This document shows, in pieces, positions 2,916 through 23,370 of a DNA stretch of 64,000 nt. Both the position numbers and the translations under genes were made by a program. Where the stretch lies: IMG/VR virus record IMGVR_UViG_3300045988_171089. One strand, 5' to 3'. The notes below the pieces were generated by a model. That model saw only the letters and a list, made by a program, of their open reading frames with translations, had not been told where the DNA came from and did no database searches. Source of the stretch: a virus. Every line of letters starts with the position of its first letter. Within the stretch, counting starts at the first letter, position 1.

Positions 2916-4517
2916 CTAGCCCTTGTTTTCCCACGGCCAGCCAGCCGAGGTGCCACGCTCAAGAAGCGGGATAAGCTCGAAACCCTTATCAGTCAGACCA
3001 CCAAGCGACCAACGGCGCTCCTTAGCCTCCATATGTGCCGCCTCATAGCCTGCAAGGTTCCAGGTGAAGACGTTCACGTGCGCCGGTACATAGCGGTCAA
3101 GAACATCATCGACAGTGTACTCAGAACCCCACCACTTACGGGCACCGAGGCTCTGCTCATCACTAATGATAAGGATACGGTCATGACCAGCATAAGACTC
3201 ACGCAGAGCCTTAGCGGTATCAGTACCACCACGAGCCTCCGGCATGTCATTATCAACAACACGCAACAGGTCATTAGAGGTAATCTTAACCTTCTCAACC
3301 TGAGTATCGAACGCCACAACATCAACGCGACCCTTATTCTTCAGAGCAAAGGCGGCGGCGAACATGTTAGCGGCATCCTGACGCGACAGAGAGCTACGCT
3401 CAGACAGGCGGCAACCCATAGAGCCGGAACGGTCAAGAAGAAGCAGGGTACGACCCGGCAACTCCGGCACATTATCCAGCACACTATTAGCACCCGCCTG
3501 TAGTGCGGCGGCAAAATCAAGCGGCGCGTTCTTGTATGCGGCAAGGAAGTTAATCGGCATAGTCTTCGCACGGACAATAGCTTCCTCATCACGCAACTTA
3601 CGGTTAATCTTCTCGATAGTATCGTAAGACACACCCGCGTTGCTGATACGGCTCAGGTTCATACGAAGCGCCTGGTAACCCATATGGTCAATAAGATTAT
3701 CCCAAACCTCAGCCGGGATAACACCAATAGTACCCGCAATTACCTCATGGGTAAGACGCGCATCCTTGATGATACGGTCTGCGGATTCCTTATCGGAAAG
3801 AACCTTAATCTTCTCGTCCTTGGTGAGGTTCAAGAAGTCACGGCGTGCCTTCATGACGGACAGCTCTTCAAGGTTCGGCTCACGACCGTAAGCAGAATCA
3901 ATGATAGTGCCGTACAGGTTCTCGCGGTACTTATCAGACGGCTTCGGGTGGACAAGGTTCACCACGTCAGCAAGAGTGAAAGCACCCTTAGCCATACGAC
4001 CCTGCCACTTCAAAACACTGTTCTCAGTAACAGACTTATTCAGGGCATCAGCAATACCACGCTTCACAGCAGACGGCACCTTACGACCAAAACGGGTAAA
4101 CCAGTAAGCAAGGAACTCGCTAGACTCATCCAGACGACCAATAGCGGCGGCAACAAGGGCACGGTTACCACCAGTCAAACCAGCCTCCAGGCGTGCATGA
4201 ACAGCTTCAGCGGCAATCATTGCCGGTACAGCACGAAGACCTGCCTCCTGACGAAGCCAACCAATCAGACCCTCAAGCCAAACATTATCGTCTGCAACCT
4301 TCTTCACAAGACCAGCGATACGGTCAGCACGCGCGTCAGCCTTCTCATAGAACGTATCCTCATTCAGCGAGGTAACGGCGGCTAGGAACAGCTCAGCCTT
4401 CGGGGTACGCTTCCAGCCGGTACCACCCTCAAAGGTACTGATACGCTCGCCGGTAGTGTCAATCTTATTAGTCGCCTTATTAGCGGTCACATGGTTCTTA
4501 GTGTTGAATCGTCCCAT
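2916..4517 (-). CDS. rsr: Ro60/TROVE-domain protein with C-terminal vWA domain (Rsr-like, 533 aa)
   Basis: N-terminal FEGGTGW (Ro60 EGGtyy-like) TROVE region; C-terminal vWA with MIDAS DRSGSMG ... GGTDT ... ILIISDEQS; size matches Ro60 (~530 aa). Confidence 0.85.
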   Translation of the reverse strand: MGRFNTKNHVTANKATNKIDTTGERISTFEGGTGWKRTPKAELFLAAVTSLNEDTFYEKADARADRIAGLVKKVADDNVWLEGLIGWLRQEAGLRAVPAMIAAEAVHARLEAGLTGGNRALVAAAIGRLDESSEFLAYWFTRFGRKVPSAVKRGIADALNKSVTENSVLKWQGRMAKGAFTLADVVNLVHPKPSDKYRENLYGTIIDSAYGREPNLEELSVMKARRDFLNLTKDEKIKVLSDKESADRIIKDARLTHEVIAGTIGVIPAEVWDNLIDHMGYQALRMNLSRISNAGVSYDTIEKINRKLRDEEAIVRAKTMPINFLAAYKNAPLDFAAALQAGANSVLDNVPELPGRTLLLLDRSGSMGCRLSERSSLSRQDAANMFAAAFALKNKGRVDVVAFDTQVEKVKITSNDLLRVVDNDMPEARGGTDTAKALRESYAGHDRILIISDEQSLGARKWWGSEYTVDDVLDRYVPAHVNVFTWNLAGYEAAHMEAKERRWSLGGLTDKGFELIPLLERGTSAGWPWENKG

Positions 4518-4626
4518 GATAGGGGTTCCTTCCTATAGTTACTGTTTAGGGTGGCTGGTTGGTGCCCCTGTTCTGTTGTGTTTGCTTGTTTTTGGGTAAA
4601 AGAAATGGGGGTGCGGAGAACCAGCC

Positions 4627-5470
4627 TTGTCGAGGGTAGTTACTAGCCGACAAAGGCGACCAGTTTCGTTGCAAATTTACAGATTTGTTTGAAGTAACTC
4701 GACAAATTCACATCCACACCCCCAAAGGGGAGCAAATATATCACACTATATTCGCTAGTGCCCGTAGCAGGTTCGACCCTGCGTGCCAGCCTTTCGGTGC
4801 AACACCCCCTATTGGGGTGCGGGCTTTGAAGTGTTGGAATTGTAGAGAATGGAGCTTATCGAGGGTGTTTGACTAGTCTAAAGGCGACCAGTTCATGATT
4901 CTAAGCAATTCCCAAAATTGTTGAAGTAACTCGATTGAATCGCTTCTATAGGTTTAAATGGCGTATCGAATTGTTGCAAGAACAACTATCCGTTGCATTT
5001 AATTCATAACAGGCACACCTGTTATAGGCACCCTACGACACCTCTAGCCCCTCGCGAAAACGCTTAGGGTTACATGTAACCAAACCGGATTAGCTAACCA
5101 TTACTTCCAGTTTTTGTTACCCCGCAAGAATGATGCCAGTCTGCATCTCGTCAAAAATAAGGGGGTGGTTACGGAAGCTTGTAACCGGACGGTGGATGCA
5201 TTAGTTCACCTTCTTGAGGGTGCTGACAGCAACGATTTTGCCTTAGCCTTGGTTCGATTATGACTCGTTCATTAGAACCTATACTCATAGTGTACCATAA
5301 GCTGTCGATTTTAGCAACAGCTAACGACAGAAACATACAAACTTGTACAGATTTGATTAACGGTTAATCATACTCTCAAGTTATTATAGCAAACCTTGTT
5401 TAGGCCTGCAAGTGCCTGTAGCAGGTTCGACTCTGCGTGTCGCTTACCACCCACCCTTATGGTGGTACAG
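4627..5470. ncRNA. candidate Y-RNA / tRNA-like non-coding region adjacent to Ro60 gene (strand not resolved)
   Basis: 1.1-kb ORF-free gap next to rsr containing two paralogous ~80-nt hairpins (4627-4705, 4858-4935) with a covarying closing stem (TTGTCGAG/CTCGACAA vs ATCGAG/CTCGAT) and shared loop motif AAAGGCGACCAGTT; two T-arm-like hairpins GCAGG-TTCGAC(C/T)-CTGC (4767-4782, 5421-5436). Confidence 0.4.
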
Positions 5471-5621
5471 GCTCCATTGGGCTCGCGCCACCCTTTGAAA
5501 TATCCATATTGTAAAGTCTTCAGGTTTCCCTGTCGCCCCTACATATATAACTATAACGTACCTGCGCGGGGTATGCAAGTCGAAAACCAACTATTTTCGC
5601 GGGGGCTTCATCACACCCGTT

Positions 5622-5972
5622 CTACTGAGTGATATATGCTTCGATTCGACCGTTGCCACAGTGGACAATATGAGTATCCTTAGCCTTGACGCGGGTGTTA
5701 GTGGTGTTGGTGTACATGTTGGTGGTTGCCGCGAGGTTGTATCGGAGCCAGTGGGTAGCGTTGCCGCCCTTTTCCATGTTTCGGATTACGGGCTTGAGGT
5801 TGCTTGAGTTGAGGCGTTCTAGTGTTGCGCGGCGGGTGATGGTGGTGGTGGGTCGCCCCTTTTTGTCGTTGAGTCGGAGGGCGGTGATGGTGCCGGTCTT
5901 CTTGTCGTATTCGATGGTGATGCGCTGGCGGGTTCGCTTGTTGCGGCGGCTAAAGAGCTTGAAGATGTCCAT
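5622..5972 (-). CDS. hypothetical basic protein (116 aa)
   Basis: ORF track; Lys/Arg-rich N-terminus. Confidence 0.5.
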   Translation of the reverse strand: MDIFKLFSRRNKRTRQRITIEYDKKTGTITALRLNDKKGRPTTTITRRATLERLNSSNLKPVIRNMEKGGNATHWLRYNLAATTNMYTNTTNTRVKAKDTHIVHCGNGRIEAYITQ

Positions 5973-6054
5973 GAGGGTTCCTTTCGGTGTGTCGTGGTTT
6001 GGGTTACCTACCCCCTATGGGTGGTTTGTGTACCCATAGGGGGGGTCTTTGGGG

Positions 6055-6414
6055 TTAGGGCTTCTCTACTACTTCTGCGACCAGGTAGAAGATGCCGATG
6101 TTATCTTCTTCAACCTTGACATTCTGGAAGCCGTATCGCTTACCGTCACCAAGCGGGTTATCTAGAGTGACTGCGAGAAGCTGGACAATAATGTTGGTTC
6201 GTGCGATTACTACCCAGGTTTCCATGTCACTATCAGTCATATTGTCGCTGTAGTATTCGACTACGGGGTTAGGGATAGGAAGAATGAACTCGCCGTATTC
6301 CTCCCAGGTGTCAGTGTCTAGGATGGTAGCGGTTGCAATGCGCGCACCGTTGCCGTTCTTTTCGTCAAACTCGTAGGTAATGTTTGCGATAGCGTCCATG
6401 ACGGTTCCTTTCAC
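6055..6414 (-). CDS. hypothetical protein (119 aa)
   Basis: ORF track; promoter-family motif upstream (6470-6560). Confidence 0.55.
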   Translation of the reverse strand: MKGTVMDAIANITYEFDEKNGNGARIATATILDTDTWEEYGEFILPIPNPVVEYYSDNMTDSDMETWVVIARTNIIVQLLAVTLDNPLGDGKRYGFQNVKVEEDNIGIFYLVAEVVEKP

Positions 6415-6605
6415 AGGTGGTGAATCCTATAGGGGTTCCTATAGGGGGGTTTCAGGGTTTCCCCCTTTGCTTATGTAACTATTATGCCACACTCTAGCGG
6501 GGTACGCAAGTCGAAACAATGTGAACCTGGTCACATTCTATTTGTGAGTACATAAAACCCCCTAGCGGAACTATTACTAGGGGGTTTCTAGGACTACCTA
6601 TAAGG

Positions 6606-7025: not shown

Positions 7026-7189
7026 CAGGTTATATGCCTAGGCGTTCAAGGTAGCACACACCCAGTGTATCAGTAATTCCGAATGGGTGCCAACTTGCTT
7101 GCGTGCCCCGTATCTGGTTAGTAGGTGTAGAAAGTCGCATATCTTACGGCTCGTTATGGACACTCACGAGTTAGCACAACGTGATTCAT

Positions 7190-7225
7190 GGCACTTATTT
7201 TTTATTCTTCAAAAATCCACCCCTA
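7190..7225. other. AT-rich tract (possible DNA-unwinding element) adjacent to the iteron array
   Basis: gcacttattttttattcttcaaaaatcc, unusually AT-rich for this genome. Confidence 0.35.
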
Positions 7226-8926: not shown

Positions 8927-9000
8927 GTGCCCCCGTGGGATTTGAACCCACGACCTGCGGATTAAAAGTCCGTAGCTCTGACCTGACTGAGCTAAAGGGG
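8927..9000 (-). tRNA. tRNA-Lys(TTT)-like, probably chimeric/pseudo (acceptor 5' strand ACCCCTT does not pair with 3' strand GGGGGCA)
   Basis: D-arm GCTC/GAGC, anticodon loop CTTTTAA, T-arm GTGGG-TTCAAAT-CCCAC; the 3' end GGGGCAC is the sequence that precedes repeat copies C and E, suggesting replacement of the native 3' end. Confidence 0.5.
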
Positions 9001-9013
9001 TCTACAAGGAACA

Positions 9014-9224: not shown

Positions 9225-10010
9225 CTACTTCTTATTGTTCGCCTTCAGCTTTTCCAGCTCATCATCCAGAGCGGAATCAACAGCCAGAGAGTCCAGCTCA
9301 TCGAAGCCGTCCTTTACCGGGTCAGCCATAATCTCCTGACGACCCTGAAGACGTGCCTCCTCACGGGCGATACGCTCTTCCCACTCATTCATAGGCGAGC
9401 TCAGGTTAGTACCATTAACATTGATGCTCTCAGTAGCGTCAAGGATACGACCCATAGCCTCATTAGTCTTATGACGTGCCAGAAGCTCATCACGCTGGTG
9501 GTGAGCCGCCGCCAGCTTCTCACGTGCATCATTTAGCTGACCCTTCAGAGATTCAACACGCGGGGTAGCAACCTTAATCTGCTCCTCAAGCTTCTCAGTG
9601 GTCTTCTCAGCGTTAGTACGGTTCTTCAGGGCGATACGTGCCAGACCGTCAAACTTATCAGCCTTAGCCTCTGCTTCAGCCTTAGCCTTAGCCTGCTCCG
9701 GGTCTTCCGCGTCAAGCTTCTCAGCCTGCGCACGGAACTCATCAGCCTTATTAGAAGCCGCCTGAGCCTTAACCTGCCACTCCTGAATCTTAGCCTGTTC
9801 CTTCTTATGGTCGGACTCCATGATGCGCAGGTTGCCGATAACCTCAGCAACATTACCCTCCGCTACTCGAATTTCTTCCTTGTAGTCACGGATAAGCTGG
9901 TTCAGCATCTCCTGCGGGTCTTCCGCCTTGTCAATTGCGGTGTTAATCTTTGCGCGAATGAGGTTGTTGAAGCGTGCAAAAATGCTGTTCTTGTTCTGGT
10001 TCTTACCCAT
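9225..10010 (-). CDS. pspA: PspA/IM30/Vipp1-family protein (phage shock protein A-like, ~261 aa from ATG at 10010)
   Basis: N-terminal SIFARFNNLIRAKINTAIDKAEDPQEMLNQLIRDYKEEI matches PspA signature (S-IF-RF-DI-NINALLDKAEDPEKM-Q-IRDM); long coiled-coil; SD AAAGG upstream of 10010. Confidence 0.8.
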   Translation of the reverse strand: MGKNQNKNSIFARFNNLIRAKINTAIDKAEDPQEMLNQLIRDYKEEIRVAEGNVAEVIGNLRIMESDHKKEQAKIQEWQVKAQAASNKADEFRAQAEKLDAEDPEQAKAKAEAEAKADKFDGLARIALKNRTNAEKTTEKLEEQIKVATPRVESLKGQLNDAREKLAAAHHQRDELLARHKTNEAMGRILDATESINVNGTNLSSPMNEWEERIAREEARLQGRQEIMADPVKDGFDELDSLAVDSALDDELEKLKANNKK

Positions 10011-12663: not shown

Positions 12664-13731
12664 CTAGCGGCGCTTACCGCGAGTCAAGAAGGCATTAGAA
12701 ACAACCTTGAAATGTGCGCGGTTAGCGAGTTCACGGCGCGGCTTACCATCTTTAAAGTACCATACGATACCTTCGGCGGTCTGACCGGGCGCTACCTGAG
12801 ACTCTACAGAGTCAGCCTGCTCAAGGGCGGCAAAGCCGTTACCCACCCATTCAATATCGAGGATAGGTACCCAGAGGTTCGCTTCCTTGAACAGGGATTC
12901 CACTTCGGCGTTAGATGCGTGGAAGGCACGGAAATCGGGCTGGTCGCCGGTGCTGAACTTGAAGTTACCCCCGATGCGGTTACAGAACAGTTCGCCCTGC
13001 ACCCATTCGCCTGGCTTGAGCTGGTCAAACACATAGGCGTGACGGCGGTAACCGTCAAGGTACTGCTTCCAGTTCTTACTATCCATTGCGTCTACCTTGA
13101 TGGAGCGGTCACGGTTAGCAATACGAATCTCTTCGGTGTCAATATCACGCCAAACGGTCATAGAGGTGCCGTCAATCTTCTCAGTAGCGTACACATCATT
13201 TGCAGTGACACTGCTCAGGAAGTCGATAGGGATATTCTGGACGCGCTCAGCGTCGGTCTTGGTAATGAAGTTGGGGAAAGCTTCTAGACCGTAGTCACCA
13301 CCGGTGAGAATCTTCTCCTCGACATGCTTAGTGACAATGCCATCGAAGTAAGTATCCACTTCTTCCTGAGTAGCATCTTCACTCAAACCTTCAAACTCAG
13401 AGACGGGCAAGATAAGACCCTGCGACAGGGTTTCACGCAGGTACATGGTGCGCAGTACTACGCCTTCAATATAGTGTCCATTGACAACGCGGGTTGCCTT
13501 CTTGCCACGGATAGGCTCAAACGCCGGGTGCTTGGTGTTGAGGATTGAGTCAATCTCAAAGTAAACACCCTTATCGCCTTCGGTCATGGTCTTGGGTGCT
13601 ACAACCCACCACAGGGTGCCTGCGGGTCGGACGGCGTGAATCTTATCTGCCGGGTTATTACATTCCTTCACTTCTTCAATGGTGGTAATGTGTGCGAGGT
13701 GTCGGATACCGTCTACAGCGGTAGAAGTCAT
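12664..13731 (-). CDS. ATP-dependent RNA ligase-like nucleotidyltransferase (355 aa)
   Basis: Covalent nucleotidyltransferase motifs in order: motif I KIDGTS (ATEKIDGTSMTVW), motif IV EGIVWYF, motif V FKVVS; KxDG(T/S) spacing typical of Rnl-type RNA ligases. Confidence 0.7.
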   Translation of the reverse strand: MTSTAVDGIRHLAHITTIEEVKECNNPADKIHAVRPAGTLWWVVAPKTMTEGDKGVYFEIDSILNTKHPAFEPIRGKKATRVVNGHYIEGVVLRTMYLRETLSQGLILPVSEFEGLSEDATQEEVDTYFDGIVTKHVEEKILTGGDYGLEAFPNFITKTDAERVQNIPIDFLSSVTANDVYATEKIDGTSMTVWRDIDTEEIRIANRDRSIKVDAMDSKNWKQYLDGYRRHAYVFDQLKPGEWVQGELFCNRIGGNFKFSTGDQPDFRAFHASNAEVESLFKEANLWVPILDIEWVGNGFAALEQADSVESQVAPGQTAEGIVWYFKDGKPRRELANRAHFKVVSNAFLTRGKRR

Positions 13732-18356: not shown

Positions 18357-18380
18357 TTTCCCCTTATTGCTAAGGTGGTT

Positions 18381-19946
18381 TTATGCTTCCGCGTGTAGGC
18401 GTTCTGCTTCACACTGGATGTTGATTGCCGCGTTGAGGTCGCGGTCAATCACAGCGTGGCAGTGCCCACACTTATATACACGGTCGCTTAGAGTAAGCTT
18501 AGTGTCAGGTCGCTTACCACAGTTGCTACATGTCTGCGAGGACGGGTAATAGCGGTCGATAACCTGAATAACTGAACCATACCAGGCGGCTTTGTATTCA
18601 AGCTGAGTTCGGAATATACCGAAGGATACGTCGAGTACAGCTCGGTTGAGCCTGGCTTTCTGTGCAACGTTCTTACCAGGCTTTTTGATAGTACCTGATG
18701 CGGATGCGGTCATTCCAGTAACGTTAAGGTCTTCAATACCGATAAGTGTGTATCGGGTGGTTAGGTTTTTAGTGAGCTGATGCAGTCCAGTTTCACGGCG
18801 TAGCGCTGTGAGGTGGTGGGTTTTTGCCAGCTTACGGGCGGTCACCTTGCGGCGATTGGAACCCTTAACCTGTCGTGCAATTTTCTGCTGAAGCTTAGCG
18901 ATACGCTTCTCAGTGTGCTTGAGCCAGCGGGGGTTTTCGACGGTAGGGTTGGTTCCGTTGGTGAAGTTCACGCCACTATCGGGGTTGAAACGCTTAGGTG
19001 CCTTCGTGTCAGAGAGTGCCGCCATATACTTAACACCAAGGTCTACACCTACCGCACCCGCGTTCTTCTGCTTACGAGTAGGCTTAGGGGCGGGTACAGT
19101 TACTTCGACAAGGAAGGATACATACCAGCGGTCAGCTACCTGGGACACGGTGAAAGACTTGATTACACCACCCTTGCGGATAATACTCATCATGTGGCAG
19201 GTATTGCCGTGAATACGGAAAGTTCCAAGGTGCGCGAGGCGGACGTGACGGTAATCACTGATAGTAGGGGTGCTCTTGTCGCCGCGACGCTTCATGTTTT
19301 CTTTGACGCGCTTATATGCCGGTTCACCACGCAGGTACGCGGTTCCGTAACCACCCATAACTTCGGGTGCGTAAATAGTGAAAGAGTCACTATTAGATGC
19401 GCGACTTTTAAACTTAGGGGTACCCATCTTACCACCCGCACGCTTACCAGTACGCGAATCAAAAAAGTTCTTGAGTGCCTTATCAGCAGACTGTAGACCA
19501 GACATGAGGACACGACGCTTCGCAGTATGAAGCCACGGCTCCCTAGAACGCTCCTCGTCGCCCCACACTTCCTCCACAGGTGCACCTTCTTCGATAGCCT
19601 TAGCACAGGCGCGATGACGGGCAACCTCAGCAGTCAGCATCTTACTACTAAACGCCATATAACCCAGTGTCTTGAACTTAGGGTCTTCCTTGGTGAGAGT
19701 CTTAAGCTCAGCCTTAATCTCGTCATCAGACGCGCCCTCTTCGCGGCGCTTAGCCCAATACTTGTTGCGGGTGTGCATAACCTCAGTGTTATAACCAACA
19801 AGCATATTATAGGCATAACGAGAAGCACCACCATCACGCGCCAAAGCAACCAACTGCTCCTGAGTAGGGTCAAGGCAAAACTTAAACGCAACATGACGCT
19901 CAACGGTATCCGGCGACGTGCCGGTAGATTCAACAGTAGTGGGCAT
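18381..19946 (-). CDS. tnpB: TnpB (IS200/IS605-family OrfB, RuvC-like RNA-guided nuclease), ~521 aa from ATG 19946
   Basis: N-terminal AFKFCLDPTQEQ...ASRYAYN (OrfB_IS605 HTH); RuvC-I GVDLGV, RuvC-II IGIEDLNV, C-terminal zinc finger CSNCG...CGHC and RuvC-III RDLNAAINI; ORF track start 20045 includes a 33-codon upstream artefact. Confidence 0.85.
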   Translation of the reverse strand: MPTTVESTGTSPDTVERHVAFKFCLDPTQEQLVALARDGGASRYAYNMLVGYNTEVMHTRNKYWAKRREEGASDDEIKAELKTLTKEDPKFKTLGYMAFSSKMLTAEVARHRACAKAIEEGAPVEEVWGDEERSREPWLHTAKRRVLMSGLQSADKALKNFFDSRTGKRAGGKMGTPKFKSRASNSDSFTIYAPEVMGGYGTAYLRGEPAYKRVKENMKRRGDKSTPTISDYRHVRLAHLGTFRIHGNTCHMMSIIRKGGVIKSFTVSQVADRWYVSFLVEVTVPAPKPTRKQKNAGAVGVDLGVKYMAALSDTKAPKRFNPDSGVNFTNGTNPTVENPRWLKHTEKRIAKLQQKIARQVKGSNRRKVTARKLAKTHHLTALRRETGLHQLTKNLTTRYTLIGIEDLNVTGMTASASGTIKKPGKNVAQKARLNRAVLDVSFGIFRTQLEYKAAWYGSVIQVIDRYYPSSQTCSNCGKRPDTKLTLSDRVYKCGHCHAVIDRDLNAAINIQCEAERLHAEA

Positions 19947-20067
19947 AATAAAAAACTTCCTAAAATGGATGTGGACAATAAAAGCCCACCCCAAACCTAA
20001 CACTGGAAAACCAGCACCAGACCCAGGGAGGGCTTCAAAAAACAATAGTCACAATAAGGTGTAAAAG

Positions 20068-20114
20068 TAACCCCGGCGGGAATCAAACCCGCACAATCTG
20101 TGTAGGAGACAGAC
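20068..20114 (-). pseudogene. 3' fragment of a tRNA-Arg(CCT)-like gene (anticodon arm + T-arm + acceptor 3' strand; no D-arm/5' acceptor)
   Basis: TCTGT-CTCCTAC-ACAGA, GCGGG-TTTGATT-CCCGC then CGGGGTTA; closely resembles the 3' half of intact tRNA-Arg(CCT) at 20302-20373. Confidence 0.55.
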
Positions 20115-20301
20115 GCTCTAGAGTCACCCCCGCGTGCAAGTCATACAAGCCTTACAGTTTTGCGGATAGGCGAGCCAAAGCTTTACTTTGACGGTGACCC
20201 TCAAGCCGGTTACCCAGCTATCCTGGCCTTAACACGTTAATGTCCGTTTAACCTCTCCCGTCTCTCACAGGCGAGGGTGACACACCCTAGAGTGTGCTAC
20301 G
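20115..20301 (-). repeat. tRNA-linked structured repeat element, copy C
   Basis: Full-length copy between intact tRNA-Arg(CCT) and its displaced 3' fragment. Confidence 0.7.
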
Positions 20302-20373
20302 TGCCCCTGGCGGGAATCGAACCCGCACGACTTGTGTAGGAGACAAGTGCTCTATCCGTTAAGCTACAGGGGT
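20302..20373 (-). tRNA. tRNA-Arg(CCT)
   Basis: Acceptor ACCCCTG/CAGGGGC (A1-C72 mismatch), D-arm GCTT/GAGC, anticodon stem CTTGT/ACAAG loop CTCCTAC, T-arm GCGGG-TTCGATT-CCCGC. Confidence 0.7.
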
Positions 20374-20548
20374 GAAAGACGGGTGAAGGTATCAACACAC
20401 CAAAAGGTGCCGTCTGCATCAACCTCCACCCAACCGAGGTATAAAAACTAGCCGTATCACCGCTAGTGCTCAAACCCGAAAGAATGGACACAAACAGCCC
20501 TACTGACCTGTCAAATAAAGTTGAACCACCACTTTAGCAGTCCAACCG

Positions 20549-20623
20549 CACCCCCAACGGGATTTGAACCCGCGACCTCCGCCGTGAGAAGACGGTATCC
20601 TAGACCAACTAGACCATAGGGGC
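20549..20623 (-). tRNA. tRNA-Glu(CTC)
   Basis: Acceptor GCCCCTA/TGGGGGT, anticodon stem CCGTC/GGCGG loop TTCTCAC, T-arm GCGGG-TTCAAAT-CCCGT. Confidence 0.7.
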
Positions 20624-20662
20624 AAAACATAGGCAATAACCCATAATAGGTTATTACCCCAG

Positions 20663-20737
20663 TACCCCTCGCAGGATTTGAACCTGCAACCTGGCGGTTC
20701 GTAGCCGCCTGCTCTATCCACGTTGAGCTAGAGGGGT
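20663..20737 (-). tRNA. tRNA-Arg(ACG)
   Basis: Acceptor ACCCCTC/GAGGGGT, D-arm GCTC/GAGC, anticodon stem GGCGG/CCGCC loop CTACGAA, T-arm GCAGG-TTCAAAT-CCTGC. Confidence 0.75.
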
Positions 20738-20741
20738 TTAT

Positions 20742-20775
20742 GAAGCTCTCCAGGAAGGAGTCGAACCTGGAACCA
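20742..20775 (-). pseudogene. 3' fragment of a tRNA-Asn-like gene
   Basis: gaagctctccaggaaggagtcgaacctgg closely matches the 3' end of tRNA-Asn (gaagctctcccggaaggactcgaacc) at 20950. Confidence 0.5.
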
Positions 20776-20911
20776 GAGCCTACCTCATGAGTATGAGGAG
20801 GGCCTAACATTTTGTTAGACGGTGACCCTCAAGCCGGTAACCCAGCTATCCTGGTCTTGACACCACCCGAAAGCAATGTCCGTTTATACTCTCCCGTCTC
20901 TCACAGGCGAG
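20776..20911 (-). repeat. tRNA-linked structured repeat element, copy D
   Basis: Conserved core between tRNA-Asn(GTT) and the displaced tRNA-Asn 3' fragment. Confidence 0.65.
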
Positions 20912-20949
20912 ATATATAACACGCCACCAAAAAATGGTGAAGAGTGAAG

Positions 20950-21021
20950 CTCTCCCGGAAGGACTCGAACCTTCAACCAATCGCTTAACAGGCGACCGCT
21001 CTGCCATTGAGCTACGAGAGA
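20950..21021 (-). tRNA. tRNA-Asn(GTT)
   Basis: Acceptor TCTCTCG/CGGGAGA, D-arm GCTC/GAGC, anticodon stem GTCGC/GCGAT loop CTGTTAA, T-arm GAAGG-TTCGAGT-CCTTC. Confidence 0.75.
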
Positions 21022-21112
21022 ATATAGAGAAACAACCACTAGTCAGGTACACGCACACGGAAAGAAAGATTAAGAAACGTGGAGTGTAACCAAAACAAGG
21101 GGTATATTTCCC

Positions 21113-21150
21113 TTAGAAGCCTGGGGCGGAATCGAACCACCCTCTCCCGG
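21113..21150 (-). pseudogene. isolated tRNA 3' fragment (T-arm GGTGG-TTCGATT-CCGCC + CCAGGCT) with no matching 5' acceptor strand
   Basis: No complementary AGCCTGG found within 150 nt upstream on the minus strand. Confidence 0.4.
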
Positions 21151-21359
21151 CGACGAAGTAACAAGTACTGTAACACCAACTTTGGAAAGGTAACCAGTCA
21201 TGTATACTAAGTCGTTCAGGCGCATCACCAGATGCTACCAAGCCAAACGTGGAAACGTGCAGGTACCGAGCCTGCACCCACCGCAAAGGGTCGCTCTTCC
21301 TTGGAGACGTAACGCTTCCACTTATAAACACTAGAACAAAATCAACTAGTATTATCCGT

Positions 21360-21432
21360 TCTAGTGAAGAGCCTCCTACCGGACTTGAACCGGTAACCTC
21401 CTGTTTACAAGACAGGTGCTCTACCAATTGAG
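21360..21432 (-). tRNA. tRNA-Thr(TGT)
   Basis: Acceptor GCCTTCT/AGGAGGC, D-arm GCTC/GAGC, anticodon stem CCTGT/ACAGG loop CTTGTAA, T-arm ACCGG-TTCAAGT-CCGGT. Confidence 0.8.
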
Positions 21433-21434
21433 CT

Positions 21435-21506
21435 AAGAAGGCGGGGTGTGTGACGGGACTCGAACCCGCTACTACTTGCGCCACAAGCAAGCGCCTCGCT
21501 ATTCGG
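21435..21506 (-). tRNA. tRNA-His(GTG)
   Basis: Acceptor GTGTGTG/CACACAC, discriminator C, anticodon stem CTTGC/GCAAG loop TTGTGGC, T-arm GCGGG-TTCGAGT-CCCGT; no encoded G-1 (base -1 is T). Confidence 0.7.
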
Positions 21507-21508
21507 CT

Positions 21509-21582
21509 TCACACACAGTGCCCCCTACTGGACTCGAACCAGTGACCCACGCCGTGTAAAGGCGGCACTCTAACCAACTGAG
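21509..21582 (-). tRNA. tRNA-Val(TAC)
   Basis: Acceptor GCCCCTT/AGGGGGC, D-arm GCTC/GAGT, anticodon loop TTTACAC, T-arm ACTGG-TTCGAGT-CCAGT; only 2 nt from tRNA-His. Confidence 0.7.
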
Positions 21583-21682
21583 CTAAAGGGGCGAAACGCA
21601 TACTATGTCCACTATCTTCCATCAACCAGTGAAGGAAACCGCGCCCATTACCCGTATGCGAGAGGCAAAGAACCCGGTACAG

Positions 21683-21756
21683 TAGTCCCTGCTGGACTTG
21701 AACCAGCGACACCCACCGTATCAGAGTGGTGCTCTAACCTGCTGAGCTAACAGACC
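21683..21756 (-). tRNA. tRNA-Ile(GAT)
   Basis: Acceptor GGTCTGT/AGGGACT (one G.G mismatch), D-arm GCTC/GAGC, anticodon stem CCACT/GGTGG loop CTGATAC, T-arm GCTGG-TTCAAGT-CCAGC. Confidence 0.65.
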
Positions 21757-21849
21757 AGGGTACGCCACTATGAGTGGCATATATACTATCCACTTAGGAT
21801 AGTAGCTCACGTTCGAGGGTGGTACACCCTAGAAGAACGTGTTACGCAC

Positions 21850-21912
21850 AGCCCGCCGGATTTGAACCGACACCTCCGTCACCCAGCGCACTACCCGATT
21901 ATACTAAGGCTG
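21850..21912 (-). ncRNA. non-canonical tRNA-like element (good 7-bp acceptor ACAGCCT/GGGCTGT and T-arm GTCGG-TTCAAAT-CCGGC, but only 35 nt between them and no recognisable D/anticodon arms)
   Basis: Acceptor/T-arm complementarity unlikely by chance; middle region cannot be folded into a standard cloverleaf. Confidence 0.35.
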
Positions 21913-22038
21913 TTGCCGCACCCCTACAAGCCGTTCACGTGATTAACTCGTATGATGCCCCTCAAGGCTCATGACAACCTCAAGGCACGACATGCTTTAA
22001 AGAAAAATGTACAGCCAACATGCCAAAACTGCACATAG

Positions 22039-22113
22039 TGCACCCTGTGGGGCTCGAACCCACGACCCGGCGGTTAAGAGCCGCCTGCTCTACCTGCTGA
22101 GCTAAAGGTGCGC
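22039..22113 (-). tRNA. tRNA-Lys(CTT)
   Basis: Acceptor GCACCTT/AGGGTGC, D-arm GCTC/GAGC, anticodon stem GGCGG/CCGCC loop CTCTTAA, T-arm GTGGG-TTCGAGC-CCCAC. Confidence 0.8.
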
Positions 22114-22227
22114 GGCGTACTGGCTGAAAGGGCTCGAAAGCACCAGTACGCCTTAATCAGTATTATTCGACTTTTGTCTTTAGTAAGCTTCCTGAAAGGA
22201 GTTAAGTAAAAAAGGAAGCTTACCGAG

Positions 22228-22297
22228 CATCTTACAGGGCTCGAACCTGTGACCTCCACACCAAAGTGCGGCGCTCTACCAACTGAGCTCAAGATGC
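22228..22297 (-). tRNA. tRNA, anticodon uncertain (possibly TTG/Gln); anticodon stem poorly paired
   Basis: Perfect acceptor GCATCTT/AAGATGC, D-arm GCTC-AGTTGGTA-GAGC, T-arm ACAGG-TTCGAGC-CCTGT; candidate loop CTTTGGT. Confidence 0.45.
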
Positions 22298-22439
22298 CGT
22301 CACAGCACAAATCAACTATGTGCACAGGTTTCACTGTACTATGACACCCCAGAGAGGATTCGCGAGTTCCACTCAAGAGGTCAGGGACTTTCGCGTTTAC
22401 ACCCCTGAATAATTGTAACGCACCATATAGCGCGTTCAG

Positions 22440-22517
22440 TACGCCCTACGGGACTCGAACCCGTGCCACTTGTCCCAGTCGGTGACTCCAGGGCTCTACC
22501 ATCTGAGCTAAGGACGT
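22440..22517 (-). tRNA. tRNA, anticodon undetermined (78 nt; extra nucleotides between D-arm and T-arm)
   Basis: Acceptor ACGTCCT/AGGGCGT, D-arm GCTC-AGATGGTA-GAGC, T-arm ACGGG-TTCGAGT-CCCGT; middle region CCTGGAGTCACCGACTGGGACAAGTGGC does not give a standard 17-nt anticodon arm. Confidence 0.4.
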
Positions 22518-22679
22518 TACCGCACCCTAAGTAACCACCAAAGGGTACACCTAAAGGCTCGCGACTTCCTCTAGGTTACTCAAAGAAGGTGAATAGGTAA
22601 AAGCCCTCCTTTGAGAAGTATTGACACATACGTTACAGCAATGTTTAAAAGTGTAGTTGATGTGTCTAAACTACACTAG

Positions 22680-22761
22680 TACGCCCGGAGGGACTTGAAC
22701 CCTCACGTCCGAAGACACAGGAACCTAAATCCTGCGTGTCTGCCAATTTCACCACGGGCGC
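22680..22761 (-). tRNA. tRNA-Leu(TAG) (type II, long variable arm)
   Basis: Acceptor GCGCCCG/CGGGCGT, 3-bp D-stem, anticodon stem CAGGA/TCCTG loop TTTAGGT, variable arm GTC-TTCG-GAC, T-arm GAGGG-TTCAAGT-CCCTC. Confidence 0.8.
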
Positions 22762-22790
22762 TTATACAAGATAGTGATTATCTTGCAGAG

Positions 22791-22863
22791 TGGACCGTAT
22801 GGGAATCGAACCCATGACCTCCTGCTTGCAAAGCAGGCGCTCTACCAATTGAGCTAACAGCCC
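22791..22863 (-). tRNA. tRNA-Ala(TGC)
   Basis: Acceptor GGGCTGT/ACGGTCC (G3.T70 wobble, Ala identity-like), D-arm GCTC/GAGC, anticodon stem CCTGC/GCAGG loop TTTGCAA, T-arm ATGGG-TTCGATT-CCCAT. Confidence 0.8.
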
Positions 22864-22929
22864 TCACCCTTCAGTGTTATATATGACTGAAGGGGTGTTT
22901 GTTAAGAAGTGTTTTAGGCTTCTTGTTTG

Positions 22930-23002
22930 TGCGCCCTACGGGGCTCGAACCCGTGACCCGAAGATTAAAAGTCTACTGCTCTACCAACTGAGCTAAAGGC
23001 GC
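22930..23002 (-). tRNA. tRNA-Lys(TTT)
   Basis: Acceptor GCGCCTT/AGGGCGC, D-arm GCTC/GAGC, anticodon loop CTTTTAA, T-arm ACGGG-TTCGAGC-CCCGT; preceded by promoter 23015-23043. Confidence 0.8.
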
Positions 23003-23014
23003 TTACAAGGAACA

Positions 23015-23043
23015 AGTATATCATGTTCCTTTGTGTTTTGCAA
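23015..23043 (-). promoter_or_regulatory. promoter TTGCAA-N17-TATACT immediately upstream of tRNA-Lys(TTT)
   Basis: Near-identical to the element at 9014-9042. Confidence 0.6.
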
Positions 23044-23113
23044 AATTCACTATTTAGTGTTGTCAATTATCTAGTGTCTAAGTAAACAGTGTTTTGCTGT
23101 CTTCTTGACTTGC

Positions 23114-23131
23114 GTACTCCCAACGGGATGA
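23114..23131 (-). pseudogene. short tRNA-Glu-like 3' fragment (ATCCCGTTGGGAGTAC) flanking repeat copy E
   Basis: Resembles T-stem 3' half + acceptor 3' strand of tRNA-Glu. Confidence 0.35.
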
Positions 23132-23297
23132 GTCACCCCCGTATATACGGTAGGTGAGCCAAAGCTTTACTTCGACGGTGACCCTCAAGCCAGCCTAAGC
23201 TGACCCTGGTCTTGACACGTGAATGTCCGTTTAGATTAGCCACCTCTCCCAGTCTCTCACAGGCGAGGTGAGTGAACACACCCTAGAGTATGTTACG
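23130..23297 (-). repeat. tRNA-linked structured repeat element, copy E
   Basis: Full-length copy directly 3' of tRNA-Glu(TTC). Confidence 0.7.
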
Positions 23298-23370
23298 TGC
23301 CCCTAACGGGATTTGAACCCGTGTTACCGCCGTGAAAGGGCAGTGTCCTTGGCCGCTAGACGATAGGGGC
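23298..23370 (-). tRNA. tRNA-Glu(TTC)
   Basis: Perfect acceptor GCCCCTA/TAGGGGC, 3-bp D-stem, anticodon stem CTGCC/GGCGG loop CTTTCAC, T-arm ACGGG-TTCAAAT-CCCGT. Confidence 0.8.

What the first reader, a model, noticed from the sequence alone, without database searches (positions are those of the whole stretch)
2916..23370. RNA repair and maintenance gene set: Rsr, Rnl-type RNA ligase, a large tRNA repertoire and a PspA/SPFH pair
Four things occur together in one early-region block:
- a Ro60 homologue, which handles misfolded-RNA quality control and pairs with Y RNA;
- an ATP-dependent RNA ligase (12664-13731; KIDGTS, EGIVW and FKVVS motifs);
- about 17 tRNA genes;
- a stress-type membrane-remodelling pair, PspA (9225-10010) and flotillin (31197-32732).

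This suggests the phage invests in keeping its translation machinery intact. One possible reason is to counter host anticodon nucleases of the PrrC, RloC or colicin type, where an RNA ligase repairs cleaved tRNAs.
Basis: inference. Interest (0 to 1): 0.5.

Follow-up and report, generated by a model that had tools for sequence, protein, structure and literature searches.

The report
Phage Ro60 gene with Y RNAs
This stretch of an uncultivated giant phage carries a Ro60-type RNA quality-control protein together with its previously unnoticed partner RNAs, many tRNA genes and a separate RNA ligase, which is a known kind of phage toolkit and shows no sign of being a linked tRNA-repair pathway.

Summary
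- Rsr/Ro60 (2916-4517).
- An ATP-dependent RNA ligase (12664-13731) with all three quoted motifs.
- 16 tRNA genes plus two weak or truncated ones.
- PspA (9225-10010).
- A FloT-like flotillin (31197-32780).

All lie on the minus strand among about 30 proteins with no recognisable family.

The 1.1-kb gap upstream of rsr holds two Y-RNA-like hairpins (X2 4610-4713, X1 4839-4947). They alternate with two tRNA-like cloverleaves (4754-4824, 5408-5472). The hairpin family recurs upstream of rsr in seven metagenomic relatives from large contigs (up to about 340 kb) and in actinophages. Its stem covaries, and it shares the 5' motif of YrlA, but Rfam's YrlA model does not detect it.

The ligase belongs to the Rnl5 family (NgrRnl/DraRnl), which seals nicks in duplexes. 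No end-healing kinase or phosphoesterase was found in the window. Its homologues in relatives lie far from rsr and tRNAs. PspA and flotillin are 21 kb apart, so they are not a pair. The tRNAs mostly match the phage's own preferred codons.

Verdict: a new member of a known kind of phage RNA toolkit. The anticodon-nuclease repair reading is unsupported but not excluded.

The parts
2916..4517 (-). rsr: Ro60/Rsr orthologue (TROVE ring + vWA/MIDAS), 533 aa
   Evidence: Pfam TROVE and VWA. PDB 9kop E 1.3e-25 and 1yvp E 1e-3. NCBIfam Rsr E 2.6e-9, below the cut-off. DRSGS/GGTD/SDE motifs. More than 400 metagenomic homologues, the closest 95% identical.
2864..2895 (-). Intrinsic-terminator-like hairpin (14-bp stem plus T run) just after the rsr stop codon
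   Evidence: Terminator scan.
4610..4713 (-). X2: Y-RNA-like hairpin next to rsr. Layout: basal stem, internal loop, covarying upper stem, GUUACUUC, apical hairpin, ACCC, 3' strand of the stem, CUGGUUCUC. A U-rich tail follows.
   Evidence: Covariance model R2 scores 53.1 bits, E 9e-10 with filters off. The minimum-energy fold reproduces the family structure, z -4.15. The 5' strand GUCGAG-UUACUUC resembles the YrlA 5' motif as aligned in phage Quantum.
4754..4824 (-). T2: tRNA-like mini-cloverleaf. It has a 7-bp acceptor-like stem stacked on a T-arm-like hairpin (GCAGG-GUCGAA-CCUGC) and two short extra arms, followed by ACU.
   Evidence: Model R1 scores 93.5 bits. Fold. Acceptor stem covaries among the five paralogues.
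4839..4947 (-). X1: second Y-RNA-like hairpin (weaker copy)
   Evidence: R2 scores 43.8 bits, E about 1e-7. Shares exact 14-mers with X2. Its minimum-energy fold does not adopt the family stem.
4948..5373 (-). Non-coding segment of about 430 nt between T1 and X1. In the 95% relative it sits elsewhere and a third X-T unit takes its place.
   Evidence: blastn of the gap against L005. L005 sequence. No convincing ORF.
5408..5472 (-). T1: tRNA-like mini-cloverleaf (acceptor GCCUGUA/UACAGGC). Its 3' trailer overlaps a promoter-like TTGCAG-17 nt-TGcTATAAT (5411-5383).
   Evidence: R1 scores 78.1 bits. Fold z -2.76. Promoter-like hexamers were read directly from the sequence. They fail the scan tool's -35 criterion, so this is an inference.
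8927..9002 (-). Isolated tRNA-Lys(UUU)
   Evidence: ARAGORN and Rfam.
9225..10010 (-). PspA/IM30 homologue. A neighbour, not shown to be part of any RNA module.
   Evidence: PF04012, E 3.4e-28. TIGR02977, E 2.5e-17. Conserved in the 95% relative L005.
12664..13731 (-). Rnl5-family (DraRnl/NgrRnl-type) ATP-dependent RNA ligase. Stand-alone gene.
   Evidence: PF21189 + PF09414. 5cot E 1.3e-20 over residues 8-353. TIGR02306 E 4.7e-19. Motifs K185, GE, EGIVW320 and FKVVS341.
18381..20045 (-). TnpB (IS200/IS605/IS607-type RNA-guided nuclease) inserted beside the tRNA array
   Evidence: Pfam. NCBIfam guided_TnpB 216.8 bits, above the cut-off. Flanking direct repeats.
20068..20125 (-). 5'-truncated paralogue of tRNA-Arg(CCT), immediately upstream of TnpB
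   Evidence: Rfam tRNA 29.6 bits. About 82-84% identity over 50 nt to 20301-20373.
20301..23370 (-). tRNA array of 15 ARAGORN tRNAs: Arg-CCT, Glu-CTC, Arg-ACG, Asn, Thr-TGT, His, Val-TAC, Ile-GAT, Lys-CTT, one with a 6-nt anticodon loop, Val-CAC, Leu-TAG, Ala-TGC, Lys-TTT, Glu-TTC. There is also a weak tRNA at 21847-21913. None encodes CCA.
31197..32780 (-). FloT-like flotillin (SPFH). It lies outside the finding's range and 21 kb from PspA.
   Evidence: Band_7 + Flot. NF058507, E 4.8e-64.

Best explanation
The window is an accessory, almost single-strand region of an uncultivated phage. Its genome is probably about 295 kb, judged from the contig of a 95% relative.

The one real functional module in it is a Ro60/Rsr ribonucleoprotein locus. 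It consists of the rsr gene and, directly upstream on the same strand, two Y-RNA-like hairpins (X1, X2) that alternate with two tRNA-like mini-cloverleaves (T1, T2).

Proposed working:
1. The non-coding array is transcribed from its own promoter or promoters. This step is inferred.
2. The tRNA-like T modules are cut by the tRNA-processing enzymes RNase P and a 3' endonuclease, as genuine tRNAs are at the same positions in relatives. This releases the X RNAs. This step is inferred.
3. The X RNAs bind the outer surface of the Rsr ring through the conserved GUUACUU-containing helix. This is inferred from the resemblance to the YrlA 5' motif.
4. As in bacteria, the RNP then gates or tethers Rsr to an exoribonuclease such as host PNPase. 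It handles structured or misfolded RNAs, plausibly the phage's own abundant tRNA and ncRNA precursors. This follows from established knowledge of D. radiodurans and Salmonella Rsr and is not tested here.

The other items:
- The tRNA array supplies decoding for codons the phage itself prefers.
- The Rnl5-type ligase is an independent gene. It would seal 3'-OH/5'-PO4 nicks in duplex RNA (or RNA-ended DNA).
- PspA, flotillin and TnpB are unrelated neighbours.
For: Shown here:
- Protein identities.
- X and T modules occur only in the rsr-upstream gap of the window. The motif counts are 2 observed against 0.05-0.4 expected. With filters off, R2 has no hit with E below 1 other than X1 and X2 in 64 kb.
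- The same hairpin family lies within 300 nt upstream of rsr in L005, L006, L008, L010, L011, L012 and L014, whose Rsr is 54-95% identical. It also occurs in actinophages Atuin and BRock. All 24 hits are on the rsr strand.
- The upper stem is 93.7% paired. Five of its six pairs show changes on both sides, with many G-U pairs. There are 65 double-change cells against 25 +/- 5 in shuffles and 13-28 in slid controls. The hand alignment gives 85.7% paired.
- Specificity: no hits in 57 kb of phage loci that lack rsr. No hits at E 0.01 or below in 731 kb of IMG/VR loci pre-selected for the two conserved motifs.
- Link to YrlA: sub-threshold YrlA hits lie next to rsr in actinophages. An R2 hit in L001 (5984-6117) encloses a YrlA hit (6019-6077). 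The shared 5' strand reads stem-UUACUUC.
- T modules: the acceptor stem has compensatory changes at 4 of 7 pairs among paralogues. A further diverged copy occurs in L011.
- In L012 and L014 the order is tRNA, Y, tRNA, Y, rsr, with spacers of about 15 nt or less. This parallels T, X, T, X, rsr in the window.
- rsr is embedded in tRNA arrays in L006, L012, L014, Atuin and BRock.

Published precedent: phage and bacterial Rsr have Y RNAs encoded within 4 kb on the same strand. There are usually two or more, processed from one precursor. M. smegmatis YrlA is cut by RNase P (PMC4201824).
Against: - Rfam's YrlA model does not score X1 or X2 at all.
- X1 and X2 lack the nested tRNA-like domain that defines YrlA.
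- X1 does not adopt the family stem in its minimum-energy fold.
- The basal helix is only about 55% paired across the family.
- The A5 alignment was fitted to the model, so its pair counts lean towards the structure.
- There are no expression or binding data. Promoters were read by eye and fail the scan's -35 criterion.
- T modules are found only in the window, L005 and weakly in L011, so their role rests on analogy.
- The rest of the genome was not available, so repair enzymes could lie outside the window.
Confidence: 0.6

Rival explanations
1. Rsr, the ligase and the tRNAs form one integrated counter-defence against host anticodon nucleases (PrrC, RloC or colicin type). Cleaved tRNAs are resealed by the ligase and replaced by phage tRNAs.
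For: - Phage tRNAs that escape or replace tRNAs targeted by host nucleases are documented (PMC10264068 and PMC11555353).
- Comparative genomics lists tRNAs, ligases and TROVE proteins together as jumbo-phage RNA-repair equipment (PMC7824862).
- The set includes tRNA-Lys(UUU) twice, plus Arg, Asn, His and Glu, which are classic nuclease targets (target identities come from established knowledge).
- Relatives carry a PolyA_pol-family (possibly CCA-adding) enzyme, Thg1 and an ATP_bind_3 (possibly TilS-like) gene near rsr.
Against: - The ligase is Rnl5-type, not Rnl1 or RtcB. Rnl5 enzymes need 3'-OH/5'-PO4 nicks in a duplex.
- No kinase, phosphatase, 2H or RtcB-like enzyme was found in 64 kb.
- Ligase homologues in relatives are not linked to rsr, tRNAs or any conserved partner.
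- Atuin has rsr and tRNAs but no ligase in the 15 kb just downstream of its rsr-tRNA locus.
- Codon usage explains most of the tRNA set.
Confidence: 0.15
2. The X and T elements are not trans-acting Y RNAs. They are cis-acting leader or attenuator structures of the rsr mRNA, or decayed tRNA and IS remnants with no function.
For: - X2 ends in a stem followed by a U-rich tract about 80 nt before the rsr start codon, which resembles an attenuator.
- T modules are not recognised as tRNAs by ARAGORN or Rfam.
- The copy number differs between 95% relatives: two units in the window, three in L005.
- A TnpB-associated repeat also occurs upstream of rsr in L011.
Against: - Family members also occur away from rsr inside tRNA arrays: L006 6836-6906, L012 14275-14341 and L014 17551-17685.
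- Multiple tandem copies, compensatory changes maintained across Rsr divergence of 54-95%, and the shared YrlA-type 5' motif all argue for selected, independent RNA genes.
Confidence: 0.15
3. Nothing here is functionally connected. This is a mosaic accessory region in which rsr, ligase, tRNAs, PspA and flotillin were acquired independently, and the tRNAs exist only for codon supply.
For: - About 30 intervening ORFs have no family match.
- Synteny beyond rsr is lost in relatives at around 60% identity.
- The ligase has far fewer close relatives than Rsr: 8 against more than 120.
- Anticodons match the phage's preferred codons.
Against: The association of rsr with Y-like RNAs, and of rsr with tRNAs or tRNA-like modules, is conserved across many relatives. 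At least that sub-module is therefore not accidental.
Confidence: 0.1

Closest known systems
Rsr/Ro60 with YrlA/YrlB Y RNAs in bacteria and mycobacteriophages (Chen et al. 2014, PMC4201824; Rfam RF02553)
   Same: - A TROVE + vWA protein.
- Two or more small structured RNAs encoded within 1 kb upstream on the same strand.
- A long stem formed by the 5' and 3' ends, with a conserved 5' motif (stem-UUACUUC, against the consensus GNCGAA-UGCUU).
- tRNA-like structure in the locus, including a 7-bp acceptor-like stem of the kind that makes M. smegmatis YrlA an RNase P substrate.
   Different: - X1 and X2 are not detected by RF02553.
- The tRNA-like part is not nested inside the Ro-binding stem. It is a separate module of normal tRNA topology, with shrunken D and anticodon arms, that alternates with the hairpins.
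- The 3' strand carries a conserved CUGGUUCUC that is absent from the YrlA model.
- Rsr is only 31-39% identical to the best-matching (actinophage) Ro-like proteins in the phage collection.
Jumbo-phage RNA-repair and tRNA toolkits (Iyer et al. 2021, PMC7824862)
   Same: A large phage that carries many tRNAs, an ATP-dependent RNA ligase and a ROT/TROVE protein.
   Different: - The polynucleotide kinase, HAD/2H/cRec phosphoesterases and RlaP nucleotidyltransferase that usually accompany the ligases were not found in this window.
- The ligase is Rnl5-type rather than Rnl1, Rnl2 or RtcB.
Rnl5 RNA ligases DraRnl and NgrRnl (PDB 5cot; PMC4408790, PMC5397189)
   Same: - An N-terminal OB-like domain plus a C-terminal nucleotidyltransferase domain, with no C-terminal appendage.
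- Motifs I (K185-IDG), III (GE), IV (EGIVW) and V (FKVVS).
- A full-length alignment with E 1.3e-20.
   Different: - About 30% identity or less.
- Scores below NCBIfam's equivalog cut-off (68 against 151 bits).
- Activity is untested, and the physiological substrate of the family is unknown even for the characterised members.
T4 Pnkp + Rnl1 tRNA healing-and-sealing against PrrC
   Same: A phage-encoded ATP-dependent RNA ligase in a phage that also encodes tRNA-Lys.
   Different: - No Pnkp.
- The ligase belongs to a different family with a preference for duplex nicks.
- No genetic linkage to any healing enzyme.
Salmonella rsr-yrlBA-rtcBA RNA repair operon
   Same: Rsr and Y RNAs encoded near an RNA ligase.
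   Different: - Here the ligase is ATP-dependent Rnl5, not RtcB, and there is no RtcA or RtcR.
- The ligase is 8 kb away, separated by ten ORFs and one tRNA gene.
- The proximity is not conserved in relatives.

Membership tests
Ro60/Rsr (TROVE) proteins | TROVE (HEAT-repeat ring) domain | tested here: met
   PF05731, E 1.5e-11, 44.6 bits against a cut-off of 23. PDB TROVE proteins 9kop/9l5y, E 1.3e-25, and Ro60 1yvp, E 1e-3.
Ro60/Rsr (TROVE) proteins | C-terminal vWA domain with MIDAS residues | tested here: met
   PF13519, 27 bits, exactly at the cut-off. PF25045 vWA_Ro60, E 7e-5. DRSGS362, GGTD430 and SDE452 are present.
Ro60/Rsr (TROVE) proteins | Passes the curated Rsr equivalog model | tested here: not met
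   NF041674, 36 bits against a cut-off of 900. The protein is a divergent phage clade, not a close orthologue of bacterial Rsr.
Ro60/Rsr (TROVE) proteins | Binds Y RNA and single-stranded RNA ends; partners with PNPase | not testable with these tools
   Needs immunoprecipitation or biochemistry.
YrlA Y RNA (Rfam RF02553) | Scores with the family covariance model | tested here: not met
   No YrlA hit in 4500-5650 at E up to 10, nor in the scan of 1-9200 (E up to 5) or of the whole window (E up to 0.5). The one hit, at 21391-21497, spans two tandem tRNAs, an artefact the authors warn about.
YrlA Y RNA (Rfam RF02553) | Encoded within 4 kb of rsr on the same strand | tested here: met
   X2 ends 93 nt and X1 322 nt upstream of the rsr start codon, on the same strand.
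YrlA Y RNA (Rfam RF02553) | Long stem formed by the 5' and 3' ends, carrying a conserved 5' motif (the putative Rsr site) | tested here: met
   Upper stem 93.7% paired, with compensatory changes in 5 of 6 pairs over 24 sequences. The 5' strand stem-GUUACUU aligns with the YrlA consensus cggCgaAUGCuu as seen in phage Quantum.
YrlA Y RNA (Rfam RF02553) | tRNA-like domain (T arm, acceptor hairpin, D arm) nested in the stem | tested here: not met
   The apical parts of X1 and X2 are a short hairpin. The tRNA-like structures T1 and T2 are separate and upstream. In this respect X1 and X2 resemble YrlB-type hairpin Y RNAs.
Rnl5 RNA ligases (DraRnl/NgrRnl) | N-terminal signature domain plus C-terminal nucleotidyltransferase domain, with no C-terminal appendage | tested here: met
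   PF21189 at residues 12-110 and PF09414 at 179-344 of 355 aa. Aligns to NgrRnl residues 3-338 of 340.
Rnl5 RNA ligases (DraRnl/NgrRnl) | Motif I lysine nucleophile (KxDG) and motifs III, IV and V | tested here: met
   K185-IDG aligns with NgrRnl K170-LDG, and GE aligns with GE. EGIVW320 and FKVVS341 are present.
Rnl5 RNA ligases (DraRnl/NgrRnl) | Passes the TIGR02306 equivalog cut-off | tested here: not met
   68.4 bits against 151 (E 4.7e-19). It is a family member by architecture, but divergent.
Rnl5 RNA ligases (DraRnl/NgrRnl) | Seals 3'-OH/5'-PO4 nicks that have an RNA 3'-OH strand | not testable with these tools
   Needs an enzyme assay.
T4-type tRNA healing-and-sealing pathway | Polynucleotide 5'-kinase (P-loop) and 3'-phosphatase or cyclic phosphodiesterase | tested here: not met
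   No Walker-A motif in any ORF of 80 aa or more. No Pfam or PHROGs hits among 44 ORFs scanned. One ORF with two HxT motifs (29713-30501) gave an unusable model, pLDDT 40. This covers the window only; the rest of the genome was not seen.
T4-type tRNA healing-and-sealing pathway | Rnl1-type (or RtcB) ligase dedicated to broken tRNA loops | tested here: not met
   The only PDB hits with significant E-values are NgrRnl entries. No Rnl1 or RtcB domain was found.
PspA/IM30 and SPFH/flotillin 'pair' | Both proteins present and genetically linked | tested here: not met
   Both proteins are present. They are 21 kb apart, with the ligase, TnpB, the tRNA array and many ORFs between them.

The most novel reading that the evidence does not exclude
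In this phage clade the tRNA-like part of a Y RNA has been split off. Stand-alone mini-cloverleaves that lack an anticodon (T modules) occupy the positions that genuine tRNAs hold in relatives. They act as RNase P / 3'-processing handles that punctuate an alternating tRNA(-like)-Y RNA operon. Y RNA biogenesis would thus be hard-wired to the tRNA-processing machinery. The X hairpins would define a Y RNA family, not captured by Rfam, that is widespread in large uncultivated phages and actinophages.
Probability: 0.35. Interest if true: 0.55.

Novelty: new member of a known kind. Interest (0 to 1): 0.4.

Why it matters
Phage Ro60 proteins have been known since 2003 and phage Y RNAs since 2014, yet no function in infection has been shown.

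This locus and its relatives give a compact, testable system. It has one Rsr gene, two or three short partner RNAs with a clearly covarying stem, and tRNA or tRNA-like elements interleaved with them. The phages involved also carry 40-45 tRNAs, tmRNA and GOLLD RNA.

The covariance model built here finds Y-like RNAs that Rfam's YrlA model misses, which would improve annotation of large phage genomes.

The check also prevents an over-reading. Finding an RNA ligase and tRNAs near Ro60 does not amount to a T4-style anti-anticodon-nuclease repair pathway, because the ligase family, the missing healing enzymes and the lack of conserved linkage all point away from it.

Tried and rejected
1. Rfam YrlA and all other Rfam families were searched on the rsr-upstream gap and on the whole window, and gave nothing. 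The only YrlA hit, 21391-21497, spans tandem tRNA-His and tRNA-Thr and is the known dimeric-tRNA artefact.

2. A GTTACTTC motif followed by a T-arm-like hairpin near 21162 in the tRNA array looked like a YrlA-type RNA. The covariance model does not support it, even with filters off.

3. IMG/VR was searched two ways.
   - Rsr peptide patterns found no relatives.
   - A degenerate DNA pattern for the hairpin gave 120 matches; none of the 80 loci returned and tested scored with the model, so those are chance. This was useful only as a specificity control.

4. A megablast of the whole block against 50,697 phage records gave only tRNA-sized matches.

5. Pfam and PHROGs scans of 44 ORFs (the ten, five with no family, plus 34 further ORFs), looking for kinase, phosphatase, 2H, RtcB, CCA-adding or Thg1 functions, found none. 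A Walker-A regex also found none.

6. ORF 29713-30501 has two HxT motifs 97 residues apart and was considered as a 2H phosphoesterase. The single-sequence AlphaFold model had pLDDT 40, so no fold search was run and the result is inconclusive.

7. Conserved partners of the ligase were sought.
   - An exact-protein look-up found nothing on record.
   - Two relatives (68% and 56% identity) share no neighbour in a conserved position, and have no tRNA and no Y-like RNA nearby.
   - Atuin has no ligase in the 15 kb downstream of its rsr-tRNA locus.

8. GOLLD, manA, RNase P-like and tmRNA hits seen in relatives were looked for in the window and are absent.

9. T modules were compared with the window's tRNAs and show no significant similarity (best local scores 27-28). 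A recent origin from a specific tRNA could therefore not be shown.

Full report
**1. What is in the sequence**

Almost all genes from about 900 to 57,300 lie on the minus strand. GC content is about 0.50.

- ORF 2916-4517 encodes a 533-aa TROVE + vWA protein. It matches solved TROVE proteins (9kop/9l5y, E 1.3e-25) and Xenopus Ro60 (1yvp, E 1e-3). It keeps the MIDAS-type residues DRSGS362, GGTD430 and SDE452.
- ORF 12664-13731 encodes a 355-aa protein with PF21189 (OB-fold domain) at the N-terminus and PF09414 (RNA_ligase) at the C-terminus. KIDGTS is at residue 185, EGIVW at 320 and FKVVS at 341.
- ARAGORN finds 16 tRNAs: one at 8927-9002 and 15 between 20301 and 23370.
- Rfam adds a weak tRNA at 21847-21913 and a 58-nt fragment at 20068-20125.
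- PspA is at 9225-10010, and a FloT-like flotillin is at 31197-32780.

I scanned 44 ORFs in total. The ten included the five recognised genes and five with no family. Among the 34 further ORFs, the only matches were weak and sub-threshold (beta-solenoid, coiled-coil, bactofilin and YgjV-like), plus one PHROGs family of unknown function.

**2. Where it comes from**

No phage record matches the DNA beyond tRNA-sized pieces. The best isolate relatives are large actinophages. Rsr is 39% identical to Arthrobacter phage Atuin, and the ligase is 34% identical to phage Racecar.

The large protein collection holds a 95%-identical Rsr on contigs of about 294 kb. It also holds more than 100 Rsr proteins at 44-62% identity, many on contigs of 120-340 kb. 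One of these is a 337-kb contig from a human oral metagenome. The window is therefore most likely part of an uncultivated jumbo phage. No structural gene lies in the window, so this is an inference from the relatives.

**3.

The 1.1 kb upstream of rsr (4518-5621) has no convincing ORF and contains repeated modules.

*X modules.* Two X modules share exact 14-mers (TCGAGTTACTTCAA and AACTGGTCGCCTTT). The second 14-mer matches 3 times at up to 2 mismatches, against 0.4 expected.

*T modules.* Two T modules share GCAGRGTCGAACCTGCTAC, found twice against 0.05 expected. Each T module folds as a small cloverleaf:
- a 7-bp acceptor-like stem;
- a T-arm-like hairpin stacked directly on it;
- two short arms in the D and anticodon positions.

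The 95% relative L005 carries three T-X units. Among the five T copies the acceptor stem shows compensatory changes at four of seven pairs: GCCUGUA/UACAGGC, GCCCGCA/UACGGGC and GUUCAUA/UAUGAAU. A diverged copy with a different but still largely complementary acceptor lies upstream of rsr in L011.

**4. The X modules belong to a conserved RNA family**

Listing every GTTACTT in the fetched loci revealed a common architecture directly upstream of rsr in all seven jumbo-type relatives, and in actinophages. Read 5' to 3', it is:
- RUGCG;
- a variable stem strand;
- GUUACUU(C/A);
- a variable apical part;
- (A)CAC;
- the complementary stem strand;
- CUGGUUCUCUGC.

I built a covariance model from 14 such sequences (R2). 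It finds 24 matches in 247 kb, all on the rsr/tRNA strand. Ten of them were not used in training.

The upper stem holds up well.
- It is 93.7% paired, and five of six pairs show changes on both sides.
- It has many G-U pairs, which would be mismatches on the other strand.
- It has 65 double-change cells, against 25 +/- 5 in shuffles and 13-28 when the partner column is slid.
- The hand-made alignment gives 85.7% paired for the same helix.

The basal helix is weaker, about 55% paired.

Specificity controls were clean.
- With filters off, the window gives X1 and X2 plus one negligible match (10 bits, E 6.6).
- There are no hits in 57 kb of phage loci without rsr.
- There are no hits at E 0.01 or below in 731 kb of IMG/VR loci chosen because they contain both conserved motifs.

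**5. Relation to known Y RNAs**

Rfam's YrlA model gives sub-threshold but significant hits next to rsr in actinophages: VanLee 47 bits, Quantum 43 bits, plus BRock and Atuin. In the Quantum alignment, the YrlA 5' consensus cggCgaAUGCuu corresponds to UCGUCGGUUACUU. That is the same stem-UUACUU element as in X1 and X2. One R2 match in Atuin (5984-6117) encloses a YrlA match (6019-6077).

Chen et al. 2014 (PMC4201824) reported the following:
- Likely Y RNAs lie within 4 kb of rsr, on the same strand, in 254 bacterial species and 22 phages.
- The M. smegmatis pair is processed from one precursor.
- M. smegmatis YrlA, which has a 7-bp acceptor stem, is cut by RNase P and receives CCA.

X1 and X2 therefore fit the Y RNA concept. 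They are not members of RF02553, because there is no hit at E up to 10. They also lack the nested tRNA-like domain.

**6. Link to tRNAs**

In L006, L012, L014, Atuin and BRock, rsr sits inside arrays of up to 45 tRNAs. In L012 and L014 the order is tRNA, Y-like RNA, tRNA, Y-like RNA, rsr, with spacers of about 15 nt or less. This is the same alternation as T, X, T, X, rsr in the window.

In the window and in L005, rsr has become separated from the main array. L005 has no tRNA within 10 kb. The tRNA-like T modules remain.

All 16 tRNAs lack an encoded CCA but have a C after the discriminator. Seven have A-C-U, as do T1 and T2.

I infer that the T modules serve as tRNA-type processing signals that release the X RNAs. 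This is not shown.

X2 ends in a strong stem followed by AUUUCUUUU, about 80 nt before the rsr start codon. A terminator-like hairpin follows rsr.

**7. The ligase**

It aligns over its full length with Naegleria NgrRnl (5cot, E 1.3e-20). K185 falls on the catalytic Lys170. It matches TIGR02306, the DRB0094 family (E 4.7e-19, below the equivalog cut-off).

Rnl5 enzymes seal 3'-OH/5'-PO4 nicks in duplexes whose 3'-OH strand is RNA. Phage homologues were already noted in the literature, and the physiological substrates are unknown (PMC4408790 and PMC5397189).

Anticodon-nuclease products carry 2',3'-cyclic phosphate and 5'-OH ends, so they would need healing first (from established knowledge of T4 Pnkp/Rnl1).
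- No Walker-A motif occurs in any ORF of 80 aa or more in the window.
- No phosphoesterase family was detected.
- One long-shot 2H candidate gave an unusable structure model.

The ligase has only eight relatives above 48% identity, against more than 120 for Rsr. In two of those relatives it has no rsr, tRNA, Y-like RNA or conserved neighbour within 10 kb. The proximity of ligase and rsr in the window (8 kb, ten ORFs and one tRNA gene apart) is therefore not a conserved linkage.

**8. tRNAs and codon usage**

Codon usage was computed over 54 window ORFs. Ten of the 15 readable anticodons read the most-used codon or codons for their amino acid:
- Leu-UAG: CTA 30%.
- Val-UAC: GTA 34%.
- Ala-UGC: GCA 32%.
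- Glu-UUC: GAA 64%.
- Lys-CUU: AAG 79%.
- Arg-ACG: CGC + CGT 62%.
- Ile-GAU: ATC + ATT 95%.
- Asn-GUU and His-GUG also read the most-used codons (AAC 67%, CAC 63%).

Thr-UGU is an exception, since ACA is only 12%. Arg-CCU reads AGG, which is also only 12%. This pattern is what the codon-supply explanation predicts. It does not exclude a role in replacing tRNAs attacked by host nucleases, which is documented for other phages (PMC10264068 and PMC11555353). Without the host genome the two explanations cannot be separated.

**9. PspA and flotillin**

Both are real homologues. They lie 21 kb apart, on either side of the ligase, TnpB and the tRNA array. PspA is syntenic with rsr in L005 only. I found no evidence linking them to each other or to RNA.

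**10. Comparison with what is known, and novelty**

Three things are already published:
- the concept of a jumbo-phage kit of tRNAs, RNA ligases and a ROT/TROVE protein;
- phage Ro60 with adjacent Y RNAs;
- Rnl5 homologues in phages.

The gene set is thus a new member of a known kind.

What is new here:
- a Y-RNA-like family that Rfam does not capture;
- its interleaving with tRNAs or with stand-alone tRNA-like modules;
- a model (R2) that finds it.

**11. Verdict**

Interest is 0.4.

Noticed in passing
window 18120-20300: TnpB (18381-20045, minus strand) is flanked by direct repeats. One copy lies about 20190-20275 upstream and one about 18259-18356 downstream, 85-91% identical in three blocks. 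This looks like a duplicated right-end/omega-RNA region. The upstream copy abuts a 5'-truncated paralogue of tRNA-Arg(CCT) (20068-20125, about 82-84% identical over 50 nt to 20301-20373), which suggests insertion into or next to a duplicated tRNA gene. A similar repeat sequence occurs upstream of rsr in L011 (about 9190-9300) without a TnpB gene nearby.
   Followed up: partly
window 22225-22297: A tRNA-like gene has a normal acceptor stem, D arm and T arm but a 6-nt anticodon loop (CUUUGG). ARAGORN reports a two-base anticodon. It could be a decayed tRNA-Lys or an unusual decoder.
   Followed up: partly
L014 13058-13480; L012 12639-13025; L006 2371-2765: Relatives of this phage carry GOLLD RNA (233, 220 and 148 bits) inside the tRNA arrays around rsr. 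The window itself has none.
   Followed up: partly
L014 16700-16965: There is a sub-threshold match to bacterial RNase P RNA class A (58 bits, E 3.5e-15, gathering score 100) inside a phage tRNA array. It may be a phage-encoded RNase P-like RNA. manA-RNA-like hits were also seen (L014 8015-8202, L002 5079-5242), and a tmRNA in L006 (17600-17978).
   Followed up: no
L006 7810-9171; L014 5083-6036 and 6432-7874; L008 1574-2329: Relatives encode a PolyA_pol-family enzyme (possibly CCA-adding), an ATP_bind_3-family (possibly TilS-like) protein and Thg1 close to rsr. None of these was found in the window.
   Followed up: no
window 4948-5373: A non-coding segment of about 430 nt lies between T1 and X1. 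It is 86-94% identical to pieces of L005 6131-6592, that is, relocated between two 95%-related phages. It is structured (z -4.6 for 4830-5120, which overlaps it) and its function is unknown.
   Followed up: partly
window 7026-7880: An 855-nt stretch has no convincing ORF. It includes a double hairpin at 7764-7856 that weakly resembles Bacillus sRNA ncr1175 (32 bits, E 0.012), probably tandem terminators.
   Followed up: no
window 16660-17463 and 17482-18030: Two adjacent ORFs share a C-terminal domain (NPG-L/M-FHDV ... SCYKI-R/H-RG), seen by eye, with no family match. ORF 15180-16523 is a lipoprotein-like protein with long Ser/Gly/Asn low-complexity tracts. Its homologue lies next to the ligase in L016, but on the other side.
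   Followed up: no
window 57300-64000: Gene orientation switches at about 57.3 kb. From 58 kb on, GC skew jumps to +0.3 to +0.38 and AT skew falls to -0.4 to -0.7, which is very strong strand asymmetry. The ORFs there have no family match.
   Followed up: no
window 20301-23370 and 8927-9002: None of the 16 tRNAs encodes CCA, yet every one has a C immediately after the discriminator. Three (8927-9002, 20301-20373 and 23297-23370) share the trailer ACGTA-A/G-CA.
   Followed up: partly
phage collection, hit H45: One record in the phage database is listed with a masked accession and name ('xxxxxxxx.1 Microbacterium phage xxxxxxxxxxxx', 191,968 bp). It is 31% identical to the ligase, so it is not the source of the window.
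   Followed up: no
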